A DNA stretch of 64,000 nt, taken from contig NW_019217844.1 of the NCBI RefSeq assembly GCF_002571385.2, positions 528,240-592,239 on the forward strand. The letters are read 5' to 3'. This DNA comes from Stylophora pistillata. Taxonomy: Eukaryota. The position numbers were made by a program. Shown piece after piece: positions 23,001 through 56,000 of the stretch. Numbering within the stretch: position 1 is the stretch's first letter; every line of letters begins with the position of its first letter.

Positions 23001-26000
23001 TATATATATTCTTTCTTTTTTATGATGTTTCCTCAGATTTCCCTGAAATCCTGAGGTCAAGAAACCGTGATCTGAATACTACCCACAATGCCTTTCGGGG
23101 CCATTTCGTGCACTTCACTGCGTTTCCCGCAACCTTTCTGCAGACAGCTATATATATACTTGAGGAAAAATGAAAAAAAGAAAGAACTAACCCTACTGAA
23201 CGACCAAAACGAGGTAAACTCGACAAGAGGGAATTCTAAGTGACCTGCAGAAATCAATGTTTACAATGTAACGAAATAATTTGGATATATCAACAAAGTT
23301 GAAATGGTAAATTGGCCACCGTAACGATTACAAAAGCTGACGTTTCGAGCGTTAGCCCTTCGTCGGAGCGAATAGAGGAATTGTGGGTTTTGTGTGCTTT
23401 TAAAGGCAGAAAATGGAGCTACGTTATTGGTGGGAACATGGCAACGAGAAAAACANNNNNNNNNNNNNNNNNNNNNTGTTTTTCTCGTTGCCATGTTCCC
23501 ACCAATAACGTAGCTCCATTTTCTGCCTTTAAAAGCACACACAACCCACAATTCCTCTATTCGCTCCGACGAAGGGCTAACGCTCGAAACGTCAGCTTTT
23601 GTAATCGTTACGGTGGCCAATTTACCATTTCAACTTTGTTGATATATCCAAATTATTTCGTTACTCCCACCGACGCAGCCCCAAACAGTTTCTTTCGAAA
23701 CTATCAGCCTTTTTACAATGTACCGTTCCACTGTTTCGTCCCTCTCATATTCACTCGCACGTCGGTATTTATTCCCTGTTCATTAGTCCTTTTGTCCAAA
23801 TTTATTTGTTTCACATGCACCTTTCTGCAAACGGCTGTATATATAGTTGGCAAAGATATGTGTATTATACAGCTCTCAAATTAAATTCAATTGAATTCCC
23901 AAACATCAAGTATTTGTTGATAATTAGAAATACTCTGGTTAGGTGACATACGCCTGACGCAGTTGATTGCGAAAATTAAGGAAAGATAGGGATCTGGAGC
24001 GATTCTTCACAATGTTCAGTGGTTGCCAGTTTCTGTTATAAACAAAGTCAGGAACTTCAAGTCAAAAATAGCTAGTTTATTTTCAATTGAGGCTCGTATA
24101 AAATATACTTTATCAAAAAATATTTATTCATACAAAAATAACAAAAAATATATCAATTTCATCATTTTTTGTTCTTTTTGCTTTAAATTTTTTTTTTTTT
24201 AACATAAACAGGCATTCATTATAGTTTTCACGGACATAATTTTGGTAATCATCTTTCTGTAATTCTATCTTTTAAATACTTCTAGCTGTTCATTTTTTCA
24301 TCGATATATTGTATTGGTGTACCTTTCATGGTAAAACCTACCGTGGGCTGGCTGGAGTAAAAACTTCTTAGGCCCACCTACAAATCACGCGCGCGCCAAT
24401 ACACTAGTACTCAACCTCTCTCACGTTAATGTTCGCCCAATGGCAACATTGCGCTCCAGCGACCAGTTAATAATATGCGCCCATCTGTGACACACACGAA
24501 CGTGCGCGACGGGAAATGACTATTATAGTCTACCTTTTACCCACGTTCCTTGTTCTATTGTAAAAAAAATTTCAGCAGGCATGAACGGCCTAGTTAGTGT
24601 CTAGGGATGATAGCGCACAGTTCTGTTCGGGAACGGAAACAGAGGGTCGTGTAAGCTCTGTATCACTGCTCGAAAATACGTGGAAATTGCTCAGTATCAA
24701 CGAGTAGTCTCCGTTCTGGAGAATATACCAACAAAGCGTGCGATCGAGGAGCTGGGTTGTCAATCAGTCGGTGTATCTTCGCCCCTTAAAAATAGACCAG
24801 CAGTCTCGGTGAAGCGATGTTTTATTGAGAATGGGAGCCATTCATTCGTTTCCTGTCGAGCAATGAAAAGAAACAAAGTTTGCCATCTTATACAATTTCC
24901 AAAAGTGGAGAATTTCGCGCCGTTAACTGAGTAACGTGAAATGGTTTTACTGCGAATTCTGTCTAAGCAGAGGCCTAAGAGAGGCCCAAGAGAGGTCTTA
25001 GCTGCTACTTTAAATAGCACAAATGAACTACGATTCAGATTCTTATAAAGTCACCCACCTCCTCTCTTTGTCGTTGCCATAGTGACAAAGCTCCTTCTTC
25101 GTTGAAATTACACGTACAGCTGAGGACCAGTGGATCTTGCTCTCTGTGATAAACAAACAGGCCATTAAATGATTCAGAAAATTTTCCTTAATGGTTTTTT
25201 ACGATCAGAAACCATACACGCCCTTTTACTCGATAGCGCACTTGGACTAACACCAGGCGTGGTTCTTTTCTTGGGACTTGAGGATGCCGGGGGAAAATCT
25301 AGCTTTAGTTTTCTGTGGTGCGGGGGAGCGGAGGATATCAAAACATTTCGTGAAAACCCACTACACCCTAACTTCAGTGTGCATATTCTCCATGCAGTTC
25401 TCTATACATTTCGTACAGTATTGGTAAGGAGAATTTGTTTAACAATCAAGGGCTGCGCCTTTTTAGTTGGTGATCATTTCCTCTATTCTCATGACCTTAA
25501 TGTGTGGATTCAGGGGTGATATTGTAAGGAGAAATTAGGTGCTGGTTATTCTTAGAGGTTAAAGGGCTTGTGAGAGGTTACTCTTTACGCCCTAAGACCA
25601 TTATGCATATTCTCCATACCGTTCTTTGTACATTTCCTAAGGTGTTGACAAGGAGAATTTGTTTAACAATCATGAGCCTTTTTAGTTGGTGATCATTTCC
25701 TGTATTCTCATGACCTTAATGTTTGATTCAGGGGGGGATATTGTAAGGAGAAATTAGATGCTGTAGACACTGTTTCAGTTTCTCTCATCCAAGTGGCAGT
25801 TGGTAGAACACCGAGTAAGAAAGACAATGCTACGGAAGTAAAAATGAGGTCGTACACAGAGCGATATTTTGGAAGCCAAAGCGAGGGCAAAGATGCCAAA
25901 GCAGACCAACCAAGAGCGACTTTGACACGATTAGTGCTAAGAGGGGCATTGGAAGTATCCTATGAAATTCCAGTGCAACATTGGAAATAACTGAATAACA

Positions 26001-53000: not shown

Positions 53001-56000
53001 GATCACATATCTTGTTTTTGAGTCCTTCGTTCACTCAGTGCGCGATACGGAATTGCTCCTTAAGAAAATCATTTGAAACTTCTTTGAACATAAAGAAAGT
53101 CATACGTGTAGAATTATCCTTATAGGGACCTAACGCAGTCAGGACGGCAACGCCACGGAATTAAAAAATTAATTTTTACTTTTAGTTAAAATTTCGAAAA
53201 TGACTGCATGTGTTTACCGTCTCATAGGGCGCCAGACCTCAAACTCAACATAACGCATGAAAGTAGCGTTGAGGGCCAAATGGAAATTAAAATGATTTGC
53301 CGTCTGGTTTTGGTTCGCAGACGACGCAAATTTTGGTGATTTCACGTTGTTGTTTTGCAAAGGGCGGCTAAGAAATGAACAAAGTTTTAAAACGCACGTG
53401 CTGGGCTATTGTTCTTCCAATTAGATCTTTTGTTTTTTGACGTTCCCGTTGCCGTCGCCGTCGTGGTTGCGTAAGGTCCCTAATAACTCCAAATACGAGG
53501 GAGATTCAAGGTAACAAAGTCAACTGATAAGAGAAGGGCAAAAACGTGGTTTCAGTGATTAAAATGTGTGCGAAACAAGCAGGACTCGGTGAATTTTACA
53601 TTTACCTTTTCCACACTTCGCTTCTGCAGCTCCTAGGGATACCTTCTCTCAATAATGCTTTCATTCCTTGCTGTTGACATAAAATAAGGGTGAGTTCAAG
53701 ACTGGCGCCAAACTGAAAATTGTCTCCACTTACCCTTTTTACATCTTCAAACATCTTTCAATAAGTTAAAACGAAAAAAAAAAAATCAAAATATCTCGTG
53801 TTACCCAGAATAAAGACGCTGACTGTAGTTTGCTATATACTTCTTTTATGTTTTAAATTCGAACTCTTTATTTCATCGAGTCTCGCAATTATGAAGTCCT
53901 AACTAGTGTTCTTCTGATGCCACATACTCTATTTTTCGAATATTCTTTCACAATACGAAAAAACTGCTAAACGTAGTAACAATGGAGCTGCTTTAAGCTC
54001 TCTAGATAACAGTGATGTCACTTCCACCTCAACCATTCTACAACTTGGAACAATTGGCCTCTTGTTAGCTTCACGTACCTCGTTAAAAACCACATCTTTG
54101 CTCTCTTGTTGCCTGGCTTTCATATACTGTGACCACAAACGGGCATGACCATCTCTGTTCTAAGGAAATTAAATAGTTATTGAACACGTCTAAGGCCTGC
54201 AAAAGGGAGTTTATATTTTCAAGAACAATGCAAACTTTCCACAAGATAACGTGGGCACTAAACTGAACAAAAGTAGCCAGAAAGGTTAGTTCATTTTACC
54301 TGATAAAAGCTCGAGTAATGTTGTTTAAGCTCGCGACAGAGGAAGTGAAACAGTTCACTTTCACTCTCTCTGGCTCCACGGATAAAACCATAACTGTCTC
54401 TAAAACTACTTGAAGCTGGTGTGCAACTACAAAAGAGAAGATGGTCGTTCAATAAAGAGCCCCTAAACCATGAAATCCCTGACACAACTTTCCCCCCCGA
54501 TCGGTAATCTTTATCAAAGCAAGCTAGATTCTTCTCTGTCGTTATTCATTGAAATATTAACCAGCAATATGCGGGACACTTGTCACATATGAACGTACTT
54601 TATGGCCTTGCTCATTAACAAGTACCTTTTACTGTTGTGGCGATATTAGTAAAGCATCTGAAAACTAAGCCACTGAATCTGTTAGCTTTCCAATCCTTAA
54701 TCAAGATAGTTTCAATTTTTTCATTCTCTTAGGCTTGTGACAAAAAGTTTAACATCCTTATTCAGAAAAAAATATTTCTTGCTAGGTTTCGAATAGTCCT
54801 GGTAACTTGGCTCAATTTCCGCCGTTCTCTAGAGTCTAAGTGTTCAATCCTCGAAAGAGAATCGCGGGTTCATTTCCCGAACAGCGGTCGGCAGTCGAGT
54901 CTGCTTCTCTTACTTTCTTCATAAAATAAGTCATTTCCTCAACTCTCGTTTCGCATTTCGTATTTGTTCAGGCAAAGAAGATTGACAACTGGTTTATTAA
55001 AAAAAATTCATTCTTTCAGATTTCCTCGCATCCTAGGGTTTCCTTGATCATCACTTCTTAAAAAGAGAGTTCAGTTTCTACTCCTCCCTAACATCAAAAC
55101 GACTCCGAGAAATGGTCAGATCACAAGAAAATTAGCCAACAATATTTGAATATTTAATAATGACATGTCCTTTCAAATATTGGGGGGTAGCACAAATCAG
55201 TCGATTGACGATACGTTGACGAGGACAGAAGTTTTAAATGGCAGAAAAAAAGCAAAACGAATGTCTTATCGAGAGATAATAAGCTGAAATTGGAGCTATG
55301 TAGGACACAAAGCAACAGTACGACAAAAGAATAAAAAAAAAAAAAAAAAAATGAGGAAGTTAAACAAAGGTGGCACTCTTAATTTTGCACCATTCATGCA
55401 TTCATGTCAAAAGATGACTTGGCAGTGGGCTATATAACCCAGCTGTCAATATGTAATTAGCATCAGTTGTCATCACCCGCCTTAAATTTCAGATAAGATT
55501 AATGATGTGAAGATCTTCAATTTCTCGAAAACAAAAAGTTCCTCTTTTTTTCGCCATAAATTCCAGCCTGCCAACGCAGTAAAAACTTTTATGACAAAGG
55601 CGTAAATTTCTCATCGGGCAAGTCACACATTTCCTCCTCTCCACCCCCCTTTCATAAGCGCTGTTCCTGGCATTTTCTGCACCTGCTGGCACATTTAGCA
55701 ATAATAGCAATAAAACTGGATAAGAGGAAGGGGGGAAAGGAACACACTTATTGGCACGTGCGACAAATTGATTAAAATACTTATACGTTATTTTTTATTT
55801 TTTTTTTTTTCCTTTTTTTTTTTGAGATCATTTTATGAAATGCGAGATTCAAGTTCGTTTAAAAGATAAAAATAAGTCCTTAGCTCCTTAGTGGAGTCCT
55901 TTGAAAAGATATCATGGTTAATGTGATATCAGATGAAGAATTTTGACATGCAAAATTTCCAATAGAAACTGATCGTTCAGTTTGTACAGGTAATCGGATA

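What the first reader, a model, noticed from the sequence alone, without database searches (positions are those of the whole stretch)
24888..54415. Hidden ~24-exon gene with an unusual architecture: TBC1D2-like Rab-GAP fused to a JIP3/ARHGEF10-type propeller
Seen: two dozen small exons splice in frame into a TBC domain followed by beta-strand repeats. Established: LPxLxAHL...VTFNWF and the DxYGF/LLRxGxP start are TBC1D2/2B-like. VxxALADGxxAV, VWCGxxN, GVWxSxR and LWVGxGNG are characteristic of the C-terminal WD40-like domain of JIP3/JIP4 and ARHGEF10/17. Vertebrate TBC1D2 ends shortly after the TBC domain, and TBC1D31 has WD40 before the TBC. I do not know a characterised TBC-then-JIP3-propeller protein. 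Inference: a lineage-restricted Rab-GAP scaffold for endolysosomal trafficking, of possible relevance to symbiosome biology if this is a coral (TBC1D2 proteins act on Rab7).
[Added by the scan's program, not by the reader: the finding's places include an assembly gap (unread letters, written N; its length is only estimated) at 26953 to 27921. Whether the letters on both sides are continuous or in frame is not known: test that first.]
Basis: partly seen in the sequence, partly recalled or inferred. Interest (0 to 1): 0.7.

Follow-up and report, generated by a model that had tools for sequence, protein, structure and literature searches.

The report
Rab-GAP gene with C-terminal beta-propeller
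A 30-kb, 23-exon gene on the minus strand of an invertebrate-type contig appears to encode an intact Rab-inactivating (TBC) enzyme followed by a seven-bladed beta-propeller, a domain combination I found described nowhere, but only transcript data can show that the two halves are one protein.

Summary
On the minus strand, 23 exons (54426 down to 25035) chain in one frame with AG acceptors, 22 GT/terminal ends and one GC donor. Five exons match Pfam RabGAP-TBC in colinear order (profile 45-201 of 216; best E 1.8e-8). The Arg finger (IxxDxxR) and Gln finger (YxQ) are intact. Ten downstream exons encode beta-strand repeats. One matches WD40_2, the JIP3/ARHGEF-type family (E 2.3e-4). One matches the LRRK2 propeller (E 1e-3), and one matches designed WD40 repeats in the PDB. 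The assembly gap (26953-27921) lies inside an intron. No exon touches it, the phases on both sides fit (1+2 bases), and profile positions leave no room for a lost conserved exon. The TBC half has no stop codon. The first propeller exon has no ATG and cannot be extended upstream. The introns between them show no other coding signal. I read this as one fusion gene (about 0.7). The JIP3/ARHGEF10 family assignment is only partly shown, and "TBC1D2-like" could not be tested. The 5' end is missing.

The parts
54300..54426 (-). Exon A (127 nt; 1 leading base, phase 0 out). Region upstream of the TBC core, contains the DSYGF motif. It needs a missing 5' exon.
   Evidence: Acceptor score 5.6, donor CAG|GTAAAA. 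No Pfam hit.
54079..54159 (-). Exon B (81 nt, phase 0/0).
   Evidence: TTAG acceptor, donor GAG|GTACGT at 5.2. No Pfam TBC hit.
53606..53670 (-). Exon C (65 nt, 0/2): start of the TBC domain (LLREGIP...R..VW). The alternative acceptor at 53712 scores -4.0. An optional 21-nt micro-exon lies at 53754-53734.
   Evidence: No Pfam hit at exon level.
52793..52832 (-). Exon D (40 nt, 1/0).
   Evidence: Acceptor 4.5, donor 3.5. Too short for hmmscan. The ORF around it gave no TBC hit.
52589..52636 (-). Exon E (48 nt, 0/0), read in the frame that gives GRDYYQKLL.
   Evidence: Acceptor 7.8, donor 4.7. Not searched in this frame.
51298..51405 (-). Exon F (108 nt, 0/0): carries the arginine finger (IKCDLLRT = IxxDxxR).
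   Evidence: Pfam RabGAP-TBC profile 45-66, E 0.13. Sequence shown.
50070..50135 (-). Exon G (66 nt, 0/0): carries the glutamine finger (YLQ, followed by G of exon H = YxQG).
   Evidence: Pfam RabGAP-TBC profile 71-91, E 8e-4. Sequence shown.
48433..48491 (-). Exon H (59 nt, 0/2).
   Evidence: The ORF 48432-48623 that contains it matches RabGAP-TBC profile 87-112, E 8.3e-5. Acceptor 6.3.
47868..47943 (-). Exon I (76 nt, 1/0).
   Evidence: Acceptor 5.4, donor CAG|GTTATA at -1.3. No Pfam hit.
46785..46916 (-). Exon J (132 nt, 0/0): LPALHAHL...VTFNWF.
   Evidence: Pfam RabGAP-TBC profile 140-183, 34.8 bits, above the 25.2 cut-off, E 1.8e-8. PDB 4p17_A RabGAP/TBC 203-243, also 3hzj and 9ltp.
45765..45809 (-). 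Exon K (45 nt, 0/0). An alternative in-phase acceptor at 45839 scores higher (5.6 against 3.5).
   Evidence: The ORF matches RabGAP-TBC profile 181-201, E 2.8e-3. Splice scores.
45371..45505 (-). Exon L (135 nt, 0/0): last helices of the TBC domain.
   Evidence: PDB 4p17_A residues 261-302, E 0.042, colinear with exon J.
44838..44960 (-). Exon M (123 nt, 0/0): linker after the TBC domain. It has no stop codon. Read-through of its donor would stop after 9 codons.
   Evidence: Acceptor 9.7, donor 3.2.
42132..42234 (-). Exon N (103 nt, 0/1): linker plus the probable first strand of the propeller. It has no ATG, and its ORF starts at the TAG of its own acceptor.
   Evidence: Acceptor 4.1, donor 6.1. 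No Pfam hit.
32568..32668 (-). Exon O (101 nt, 2/0). The acceptor is weak (-0.4). The alternative compatible acceptor is 32653.
   Evidence: No Pfam hit.
32168..32265 (-). Exon P (98 nt, 0/2; long form).
   Evidence: Donor 4.4 against -1.1 for the short form. No Pfam hit.
31731..31839 (-). Exon Q (109 nt, 1/0): VFAALADGSIAV blade.
   Evidence: PDB designed WD40 propellers 7bie and 7big, E 3e-6, as the sum of 7-8 weak repeats of 2.5-2.9 bits each.
30845..30978 (-). Exon R0 (134 nt, 0/2): VWCGCGN blade.
   Evidence: Pfam WD40_2 profile 170-204 of 488, E 2.3e-4, 20.5 bits. Beta-prop_LRRK2 160-188, E 0.049. The Atlas gave generic propeller clusters.
28650..28751 (-). Exon R (102 nt, 1/2): GVWCSVR blade.
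   Evidence: Acceptor 5.0, donor 4.7. No Pfam hit.
28416..28509 (-). Exon S (94 nt, 1/0).
   Evidence: The 84-nt intron to T is open in frame.
28178..28331 (-). Exon T (154 nt, 0/1): LWVGLGNG blade. It ends at a GC donor.
   Evidence: Pfam Beta-prop_LRRK2 profile 272-307 of 359, E 1e-3. LRRK2 WD40 structures 6vp8 and 6dlo, E 0.16-0.21. The GC donor scores 8.1 if scored as GT; the GT alternatives score -4.0 and -3.1.
26953..27921 (.). Assembly gap (969 N), placed inside the T-U intron by the model.
26263..26671 (-). Exon U (409 nt, 2/2): acidic, low-complexity insert of about 100 aa, then a beta-strand segment.
   Evidence: It lies in a 163-codon open frame. The coding score is the highest of any exon. 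Donor 6.2. No meaningful Pfam hit.
25035..25143 (-). Exon V (109 nt with stop TGA 25037-25035). The alternative is to splice at 25059 to 24962-24888 (stop TAA 24890-24888).
   Evidence: AATAAA at 24826.
58516..58625 (-). Weak candidate for the first coding exon: ATG, 36 codons plus 2 bases, which fits exon A's phase.
   Evidence: Donor 3.8, coding score -2.0. No Pfam hit. Speculative.

Best explanation
This is one protein-coding gene on the minus strand with at least 23 exons over about 29.4 kb. Its 5' end was not found. The first 13 exons encode a complete TBC Rab-GAP domain with both catalytic fingers. By the established dual-finger mechanism of TBC domains (general knowledge, not tested here), the domain should insert its Arg and Gln into the active site of a GTP-bound Rab and switch it off. 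A linker of roughly 50 residues (exon M and the start of exon N) leads into about 310 residues of beta-strand repeats, which I count as seven blades by eye. The sixth/seventh-blade loop carries an acidic, probably disordered insert of about 110 residues. The propeller belongs to the group that includes WD40_2 (JIP3/4, ARHGEF10/17) and the LRRK2 WD40. It most likely serves as the targeting or partner-binding module that decides where and on which membrane the GAP acts.

Shown: the exons, frames, TBC identity, catalytic residues and beta-propeller character.
Inferred: the single transcript, seven blades, the propeller's role and GAP activity.
Unknown: the Rab substrate.
For: - The 23 exons are phase-consistent with canonical splice sites.
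- 18 of 22 junctions are phase-compatible when sites are chosen blind to phase.
- 5 of the 12 TBC-half exons tested in frame hit PF00566, in colinear order: profile 45-66, 71-91, 87-112, 140-183 and 181-201.
- Exons J and L align colinearly to the TBC structure 4p17.
- IxxDxxR and YxQ are present.
- Propeller exons: R0 hits WD40_2 (E 2.3e-4), T hits Beta-prop_LRRK2 (E 1e-3), and Q hits designed WD40 repeats. Both Atlas queries returned only beta-propeller clusters among named hits.
- For one gene: exon M has no stop. Exon N has no ATG, and its frame is closed upstream by the TAG of its own acceptor.
- M to N is compatible using the top-scoring sites.
- The M-N intron holds no ATG-started phase-0 exon with a donor of 3 or more.
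- The only coding-like segment in the M-N intron is a simple repeat.
- 0 of 10 large ORFs from these two introns (9 in N-O, 1 in M-N) have a relevant Pfam hit, so no RhoGEF- or JIP-type N-terminus is present.
- Both halves share the same unmethylated-type CpG content (0.91-1.02), unlike the neighbouring genes.
Against: - There is no transcript evidence.
- The N-to-O junction across the 9.5-kb intron uses a weak acceptor (-0.4). The best-scoring AG sites there are out of phase.
- An ATG-started ORF at 37792-37648 with a good donor (6.3) and the right phase could start a propeller-only transcript at exon O.
- Read-through of exon M's donor stops after 9 codons, so a TBC-only product is possible.
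- Only 2 of 10 propeller exons hit a propeller family in Pfam, both below the curated cut-offs.
- The T-U intron needs a rare GC donor and contains the gap.
- The 5' end is missing.
- The whole-protein domain scan and fold were left out, so blade count and domain limits rest on reading the exons.
Confidence: 0.7

Rival explanations
1. There are two adjacent same-strand genes. A TBC-only Rab-GAP ends soon after exon M. A separate propeller gene has its own promoter and first exon in the 2.6-kb or 9.5-kb interval.
For: - Read-through of exon M's donor gives a stop after 9 codons, and AATAAA lies at 44097.
- ORF 37792-37648 (ATG, donor 6.3, trailing 1 base) could feed exon O.
- The acceptor of exon O is weak.
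Against: - Exon N has a good acceptor (4.1) and donor (6.1), no ATG, and cannot be extended upstream. It only makes sense spliced to a phase-0 exon, and the M-N intron offers none.
- ORF 37649-37792 has a low coding score (2.5) and no Pfam hit.
- A propeller starting at exon O would lack what looks like its first strand.
Confidence: 0.17
2. An assembly artefact has scaffolded two unrelated gene halves next to each other. Ns lie at 41013-41036 and 26953-27921, and a palindromic join lies at 23268-23664 nearby.
For: - The window holds 4 N regions and a 198-nt, 99% perfect inverted repeat centred on an N run. The assembly is therefore imperfect.
- The scattered Ns lie in the long intron that separates exon N from the rest of the propeller.
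Against: - The TBC-to-propeller link (M to N) lies on the same side of 41013-41036 as the TBC exons.
- Strand, order and phase are kept across both N regions.
- Propeller exons on both sides of the large gap are in profile order: T at 272-307 of the LRRK2 profile, then the U tail and V.
- Single scattered Ns suggest low-quality bases rather than a scaffold join.
Confidence: 0.06
3. The gene is the same fusion, but the propeller is of the LRRK2 type (Pfam Beta-prop_LRRK2), or of a sister group, rather than the JIP3/ARHGEF10 type (WD40_2) named by the reader.
For: - Exon T hits only Beta-prop_LRRK2 (18.6 bits, E 1e-3) and LRRK2 WD40 structures.
- Exon R0 also hits Beta-prop_LRRK2 (13.1 bits), and the two hits are colinear in that profile (160-188, then 272-307).
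- The summed exon bits are 31.7 for LRRK2 against 20.5 for WD40_2 (my sum).
Against: - The single best family-specific exon hit is to WD40_2 (R0: 20.5 against 13.1 bits).
- From memory only, the motif set and spacing across exons Q to V resemble JIP3/4 more than LRRK2. That is a lead, not a test.
- The WD40_2 profile is long (488 positions), which handicaps hits from short exons.
Confidence: 0.3

Closest known systems
TBC1D2 / TBC1D2B (Armus) and C. elegans TBC-2
   Same: It has an active-type TBC domain with both fingers. The conserved region upstream of the TBC core, with a D-x-YGF motif, and the helices after the core resemble this subfamily. That resemblance is recalled, not tested.
   Different: Those proteins have an N-terminal PH domain and a coiled coil, and they end soon after the TBC domain (recalled). 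Here no PH exon was found in the window, and a propeller follows the TBC domain.
JIP3/JIP4 and ARHGEF10/10L/17 C-terminal propeller (Pfam WD40_2, PF19056)
   Same: The propeller is C-terminal. Exon R0 matches PF19056 at positions 170-204. The ARHGEF17 C-terminus is a predicted seven-bladed propeller homologous to JSAP1/JIP3 (PMC3404065, passages read).
   Different: The N-terminal partner is a TBC Rab-GAP instead of RH1/RH2 coiled coils or a DH-PH RhoGEF. A large acidic insert sits in a late blade loop. Only 1 of 10 exons reaches the profile, and it falls below the cut-off.
LRRK2 WD40 domain (Pfam Beta-prop_LRRK2, PF23748; PDB 6dlo, 6vp8)
   Same: Exons R0 and T match colinearly. The LWVG-GNG strand aligns to the corresponding LRRK2 blade. 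The propeller is C-terminal in a Rab-pathway protein.
   Different: No ROC-COR or kinase exons are present. The scores are weak (E 1e-3 to 0.2).
TBC1D31 (WDR67)
   Same: It combines a TBC domain with WD40 repeats in one protein.
   Different: The order is reversed, with WD40 before the TBC domain (recalled). TBC-L/WDR67 mostly lacks one or both catalytic fingers (PMC3655817, passage read). Here both fingers are present.
Chlamydomonas RabGAP/TBC protein (PDB 4p17)
   Same: It is the best solved-structure match for two TBC exons, and the matches are colinear.
   Different: It is only a TBC-domain match at E 0.016-0.042. It says nothing about subfamily or architecture.

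Membership tests
RabGAP-TBC (Pfam PF00566) | Profile match at or above the curated cut-off | tested here: met
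   Exon J alone scores 34.8 bits against the 25.2 cut-off (E 1.8e-8). Four further exons match colinearly.
RabGAP-TBC (Pfam PF00566) | Arginine finger in IxxDxxR | tested here: met
   Exon F reads I-K-C-D-L-L-R and lies within the stretch aligned to profile 45-66.
RabGAP-TBC (Pfam PF00566) | Glutamine finger in YxQ | tested here: met
   Exon G ends Y-L-Q, and exon H begins with G. The stretch aligns to profile 71-91.
RabGAP-TBC (Pfam PF00566) | GAP activity on a Rab | not testable with these tools
   This needs a biochemical assay.
TBC1D2/TBC1D2B subfamily | N-terminal PH domain and coiled coil before the TBC domain | tested here: inconclusive
   None of the 10 upstream ORFs tested had a PH hit, out of 30 minus-strand ORFs of 38 aa or more listed above 54400. 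The 5' end may lie outside the window or in small exons.
TBC1D2/TBC1D2B subfamily | Grouping with TBC1D2 in a TBC-domain phylogeny | not testable with these tools
WD40_2 (PF19056; JIP3/4, ARHGEF10/17 propeller) | Profile match over the domain at or above the cut-off | tested here: inconclusive
   Searched exon by exon only. 1 of 10 exons hits (R0: 20.5 bits against 22.5, E 2.3e-4). The whole-domain search was left out.
WD40_2 (PF19056; JIP3/4, ARHGEF10/17 propeller) | C-terminal seven-bladed propeller | tested here: inconclusive
   The C-terminal position is met. The count of seven blades comes from reading the exon peptides, not from a fold.
Beta-prop_LRRK2 (PF23748) | Profile match at or above the cut-off | tested here: inconclusive
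   Exon T scores 18.6 bits and R0 13.1 bits against the 26.9 cut-off. The hits are colinear. PDB LRRK2 matches at E 0.16-0.21.
Beta-prop_LRRK2 (PF23748) | Association with ROC-COR-kinase (LRRK architecture) | tested here: not met
   No such Pfam hits came from any of the exons or intronic ORFs searched.

The most novel reading that the evidence does not exclude
A single polypeptide couples a catalytically competent dual-finger Rab-GAP to the orphan propeller shared by the motor adaptors JIP3/4 and the RhoGEFs ARHGEF10/17, and related more distantly to the LRRK2 WD40. This architecture has no described counterpart. It would mean the propeller is a portable targeting module that evolution has attached to three different small-GTPase regulators. 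It would also give a simple system (GAP read-out) for finding what that propeller binds.
Probability: 0.4. Interest if true: 0.55.

Novelty: new variant of a known kind. Interest (0 to 1): 0.4.

Why it matters
TBC Rab-GAPs are told apart mainly by their accessory domains, which set where they act. The function of the JIP3/ARHGEF10-type propeller is poorly understood. If a Rab-GAP really carries it, the propeller is a reusable targeting module for regulators of membrane traffic. Such a GAP would offer an enzyme read-out for studying that module. The case is modest. Domain shuffling is common in invertebrate genomes, the fusion is not shown at transcript level, and I could not check whether public annotations already list this architecture.

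Tried and rejected
1. A home-made splice and codon-usage chain finder recovered 14 of my final exons. It put exon F in the wrong frame and added spurious micro-exons. I used it only as a guide and curated by eye.

2. The ESM Atlas was queried with exon T and exon R0 (2 of 2 used). It returned only generic beta-propeller clusters at 0.89-0.95. No cluster carried TBC plus a propeller, so this says nothing about the architecture.

3. A PDB sequence search with exon R0 gave 0 hits at E up to 10.

4. The 5' end was sought in three ways:
- an ORF listing;
- a coding-score scan;
- a search for exons of the right phase.
These gave only one weak candidate (58625-58516). 10 upstream ORFs had no relevant Pfam hit.

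5. CpG observed/expected was tried as a marker of transcription-unit extent. The locus is uniformly about 1.0 and so is its surroundings up to 64 kb. It cannot separate one gene from two.

6. Rfam and tRNA scans of the window found nothing.

7. The short form of exon P and the GT donors for exon T were rejected on splice scores.

8. A possible extra exon at 28101-27961, just before the gap, was considered. It has the wrong phase for exon U, is hydrophobic, and has no Pfam hit.

9. An AlphaFold model of the neighbouring 499-aa ORF was too poor to search with (pLDDT 48.1).

Full report
SCOPE AND LIMITS
- The window is 64 kb at about 38% G+C.
- N runs lie at 6160-6966, 23456-23476 and 26953-27921. 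Scattered single Ns lie at 41013-41036.
- I do not take the contig for human. The neighbouring genes are metazoan but differently built: for example, an Abl-like SH3-SH2-kinase start sits in one 298-codon open frame. CpG depletion is mosaic, as in invertebrates.
The joined protein was never built, searched or folded, so there is no whole-protein HMMER, AlphaFold or Foldseek result.
The distribution of this architecture in other genomes stayed unchecked.
- Supplements of papers were closed. The supplementary domain tables of PMC3655817, which sampled Nematostella, could bear on the novelty claim and were not seen.

THE GAP
- No exon of the model touches 26953-27921.
- Exon T ends at 28178 and exon U begins at 26671.
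- T leaves one base and U supplies two, so the reading frame closes across the gap.
- In U's frame a stop at 26753-26751 lies between the gap and the exon. U therefore cannot be a continuation of coding sequence inside the gap.
- Both gap edges are G-rich.
- Exon T covers positions 272-307 of the 359-position LRRK2-propeller profile. About 70 residues of beta-strand sequence follow in the tail of U and in V, so no conserved blade need be missing.
- T's donor is GC (AAG|GCGAGT). It scores 8.1 if scored as GT. The nearest GT donors score -4.0 and -3.1.
- A small loop-coding exon hidden in the gap cannot be excluded.

THE OBSERVATION
- I curated 23 exons, A to V, from 54426 to 25035. A script confirmed AG before each exon, GT after each except T and the terminal V, no internal stop, and an unbroken phase chain.
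- I later replaced the short form of exon P with 32265-32168 on splice score: 4.4 against -1.1, same phase.
- Total coding length is 2518 nt. This is my sum.
- I then picked the top-scoring acceptor and GT donor around each exon core without looking at phase. 18 of 22 junctions were compatible against one third expected (P 4e-6).
- The four failures were A-B, K-L, N-O and T-U. The T-U failure reflects the GC donor, since only GT donors were scored.
- The frames and cores in that test came from my homology-guided model, so the test is not fully independent.

THE TBC HALF
- 12 of the 13 exons were searched in frame, as exons or as the ORFs that contain them. Exon E was not searched in its frame.
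- Five hit Pfam RabGAP-TBC in the order of the profile:
  - F at 45-66 (E 0.13)
  - G at 71-91 (E 8e-4)
  - H at 87-112 (E 8.3e-5)
  - J at 140-183 (E 1.8e-8, 34.8 bits, above the 25.2 cut-off)
  - K at 181-201 (E 2.8e-3)
- Exons J and L align colinearly to the solved TBC domain 4p17_A, at residues 203-243 and 261-302.
- Exon F carries IxxDxxR, and exon G ends in YxQ. Both catalytic fingers are present.
- Exons A to C hold the upstream D-x-YGF motif and the LLR-G-P / R-x-x-W start of the domain, but gave no Pfam hit alone.

THE PROPELLER HALF
- All 10 exons were searched in Pfam.
  - R0 hits WD40_2 at 170-204 of 488 (E 2.3e-4, 20.5 bits against a 22.5 cut-off). It also hits Beta-prop_LRRK2 at 160-188 (E 0.049).
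  - T hits Beta-prop_LRRK2 at 272-307 (E 1e-3).
  - The other eight gave nothing relevant.
- Three exons were searched against the PDB.
  - T matched LRRK2 WD40 chains (E 0.16-0.21).
  - Q matched designed consensus WD40 propellers (E 3e-6, from 7-8 repeated weak matches).
  - R0 matched nothing.
- Both Atlas queries returned only beta-propeller clusters among named hits.
- The half is therefore a beta-propeller of the WD40_2/LRRK2 group. The tools do not decide between those two families.
- PMC3404065 (passages read) states that the ARHGEF17 C-terminus is a predicted seven-bladed propeller homologous to JSAP1/JIP3.
- Exon U is a 409-nt exon inside a 163-codon open frame. It adds an acidic insert of about 100 residues before the last blade.

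ONE GENE OR TWO
For one gene:
- Exon M, after the TBC domain, has no stop.
- Exon N has a good acceptor and donor (4.1 and 6.1), contains no ATG, and its frame is closed upstream by the TAG of its own acceptor.
- M to N is compatible with the best sites.
- The 2.6-kb M-N intron holds no ATG-started phase-0 exon with a donor of 3 or more. Its only coding-like segment is a simple repeat.
- 0 of 10 large ORFs from these two introns (9 in N-O, 1 in M-N) hit any relevant family.

Against one gene:
- O's acceptor is weak, and better AG sites nearby are out of phase.
- ORF 37792-37648 could start a propeller-only transcript, though it has no Pfam hit.
- Read-through after exon M stops after 9 codons.

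I put one fusion gene at about 0.7.

THE ENDS
- Exon A starts with one base of a split codon, so a 5' exon is missing.
- The only candidate found is 58625-58516: ATG, right phase, weak coding score.
- No PH-domain exon was seen. 10 of the 30 listed upstream ORFs were tested.
- A 510-codon plus-strand ORF at 60934-62466 bounds the space available.
- At the 3' end the frame either reads through to TGA at 25037-25035, or splices at 25059 (donor 6.2) to 24962-24888.
- AATAAA lies at 24826.

KNOWN OR NEW
- Five literature searches and passages read in four papers found no description of a TBC domain followed by such a propeller. The papers were PMC3655817, PMC8923023, PMC11101121 and PMC3404065.
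- PMC3655817's main text has 0 occurrences of 'WD40' or 'propeller'.
- This is weak negative evidence. Database annotations could not be consulted.
- I file the finding as a new variant of a known kind: a Rab-GAP with an unusual accessory domain.
- The Rab7, endolysosome and symbiosome ideas have no support from any call.

Noticed in passing
window 3455-11554 (+): An Abl-like tyrosine kinase gene. One 298-codon frame holds SH3 (E 1.5e-10), SH2 (E 1.9e-25) and the kinase start. The kinase C-lobe lies at 8422-8727. A 577-codon proline-rich exon at 9821-11551 has no Pfam hit. The N gap 6160-6966 lies inside the gene.
   Followed up: partly
window 14708-18655 (-): A Ro60 (TROVE2) gene. It has the TROVE domain (E 6e-28 and 2e-21) and the Ro60 vWA domain (E 2.6e-48) in three long exons.
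   Followed up: partly
window 20900-21505 (+): A single open frame encodes a Bcl-2 family protein (PF00452, E 1.5e-25). It is convergent with the 3' end of the TBC-propeller gene.
   Followed up: partly
whole window: CpG content is mosaic. The Abl (o/e 0.38) and Ro60 (0.50) gene bodies are strongly CpG-depleted, with windows as low as 0.14. Everything from about 18 kb to 64 kb, including the whole TBC-propeller locus, is near 1.0. This is consistent with invertebrate gene-body methylation of broadly expressed genes only.
   Followed up: partly
window 23268-23664: A 198-nt inverted repeat, 99% complementary, has arms 1 nt apart and is centred on the 21-N run 23456-23476. Both strands give the same translation. 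It looks like a palindromic assembly join or a hairpin element.
   Followed up: partly
window 60934-62466 (+): A 510-codon open frame (probable start at 60967) has no Pfam hit. It has a hydrophobic N-terminal segment, a low-complexity stretch, and a helix-rich second half. A single-sequence AlphaFold model has pLDDT 48.1 and nine helices between residues 196 and 483. It may be an orphan multi-pass membrane protein. The fold was too poor to search with.
   Followed up: partly
window 28332-28415 (-): The 84-nt intron between exons S and T is a multiple of three and has no stop in frame. Intron retention would insert 28 residues without breaking the frame.
   Followed up: no
window 28176-28177 (-): There is a probable GC-AG intron. 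The donor AAG|GCGAGT matches the consensus at every other position. The intron contains the assembly gap.
   Followed up: partly
window 41013-41036: Fourteen Ns are scattered singly or in short runs among readable bases, inside the 9.5-kb intron. This looks like low-quality base calls rather than a scaffold gap.
   Followed up: no
window 44616-44741 (-) and 31382-31413: Simple repeats lie in introns. One is an ATT/ATC-type run that reads as poly-Ile and falsely scores as coding. The other is (TGTT)8.
   Followed up: no
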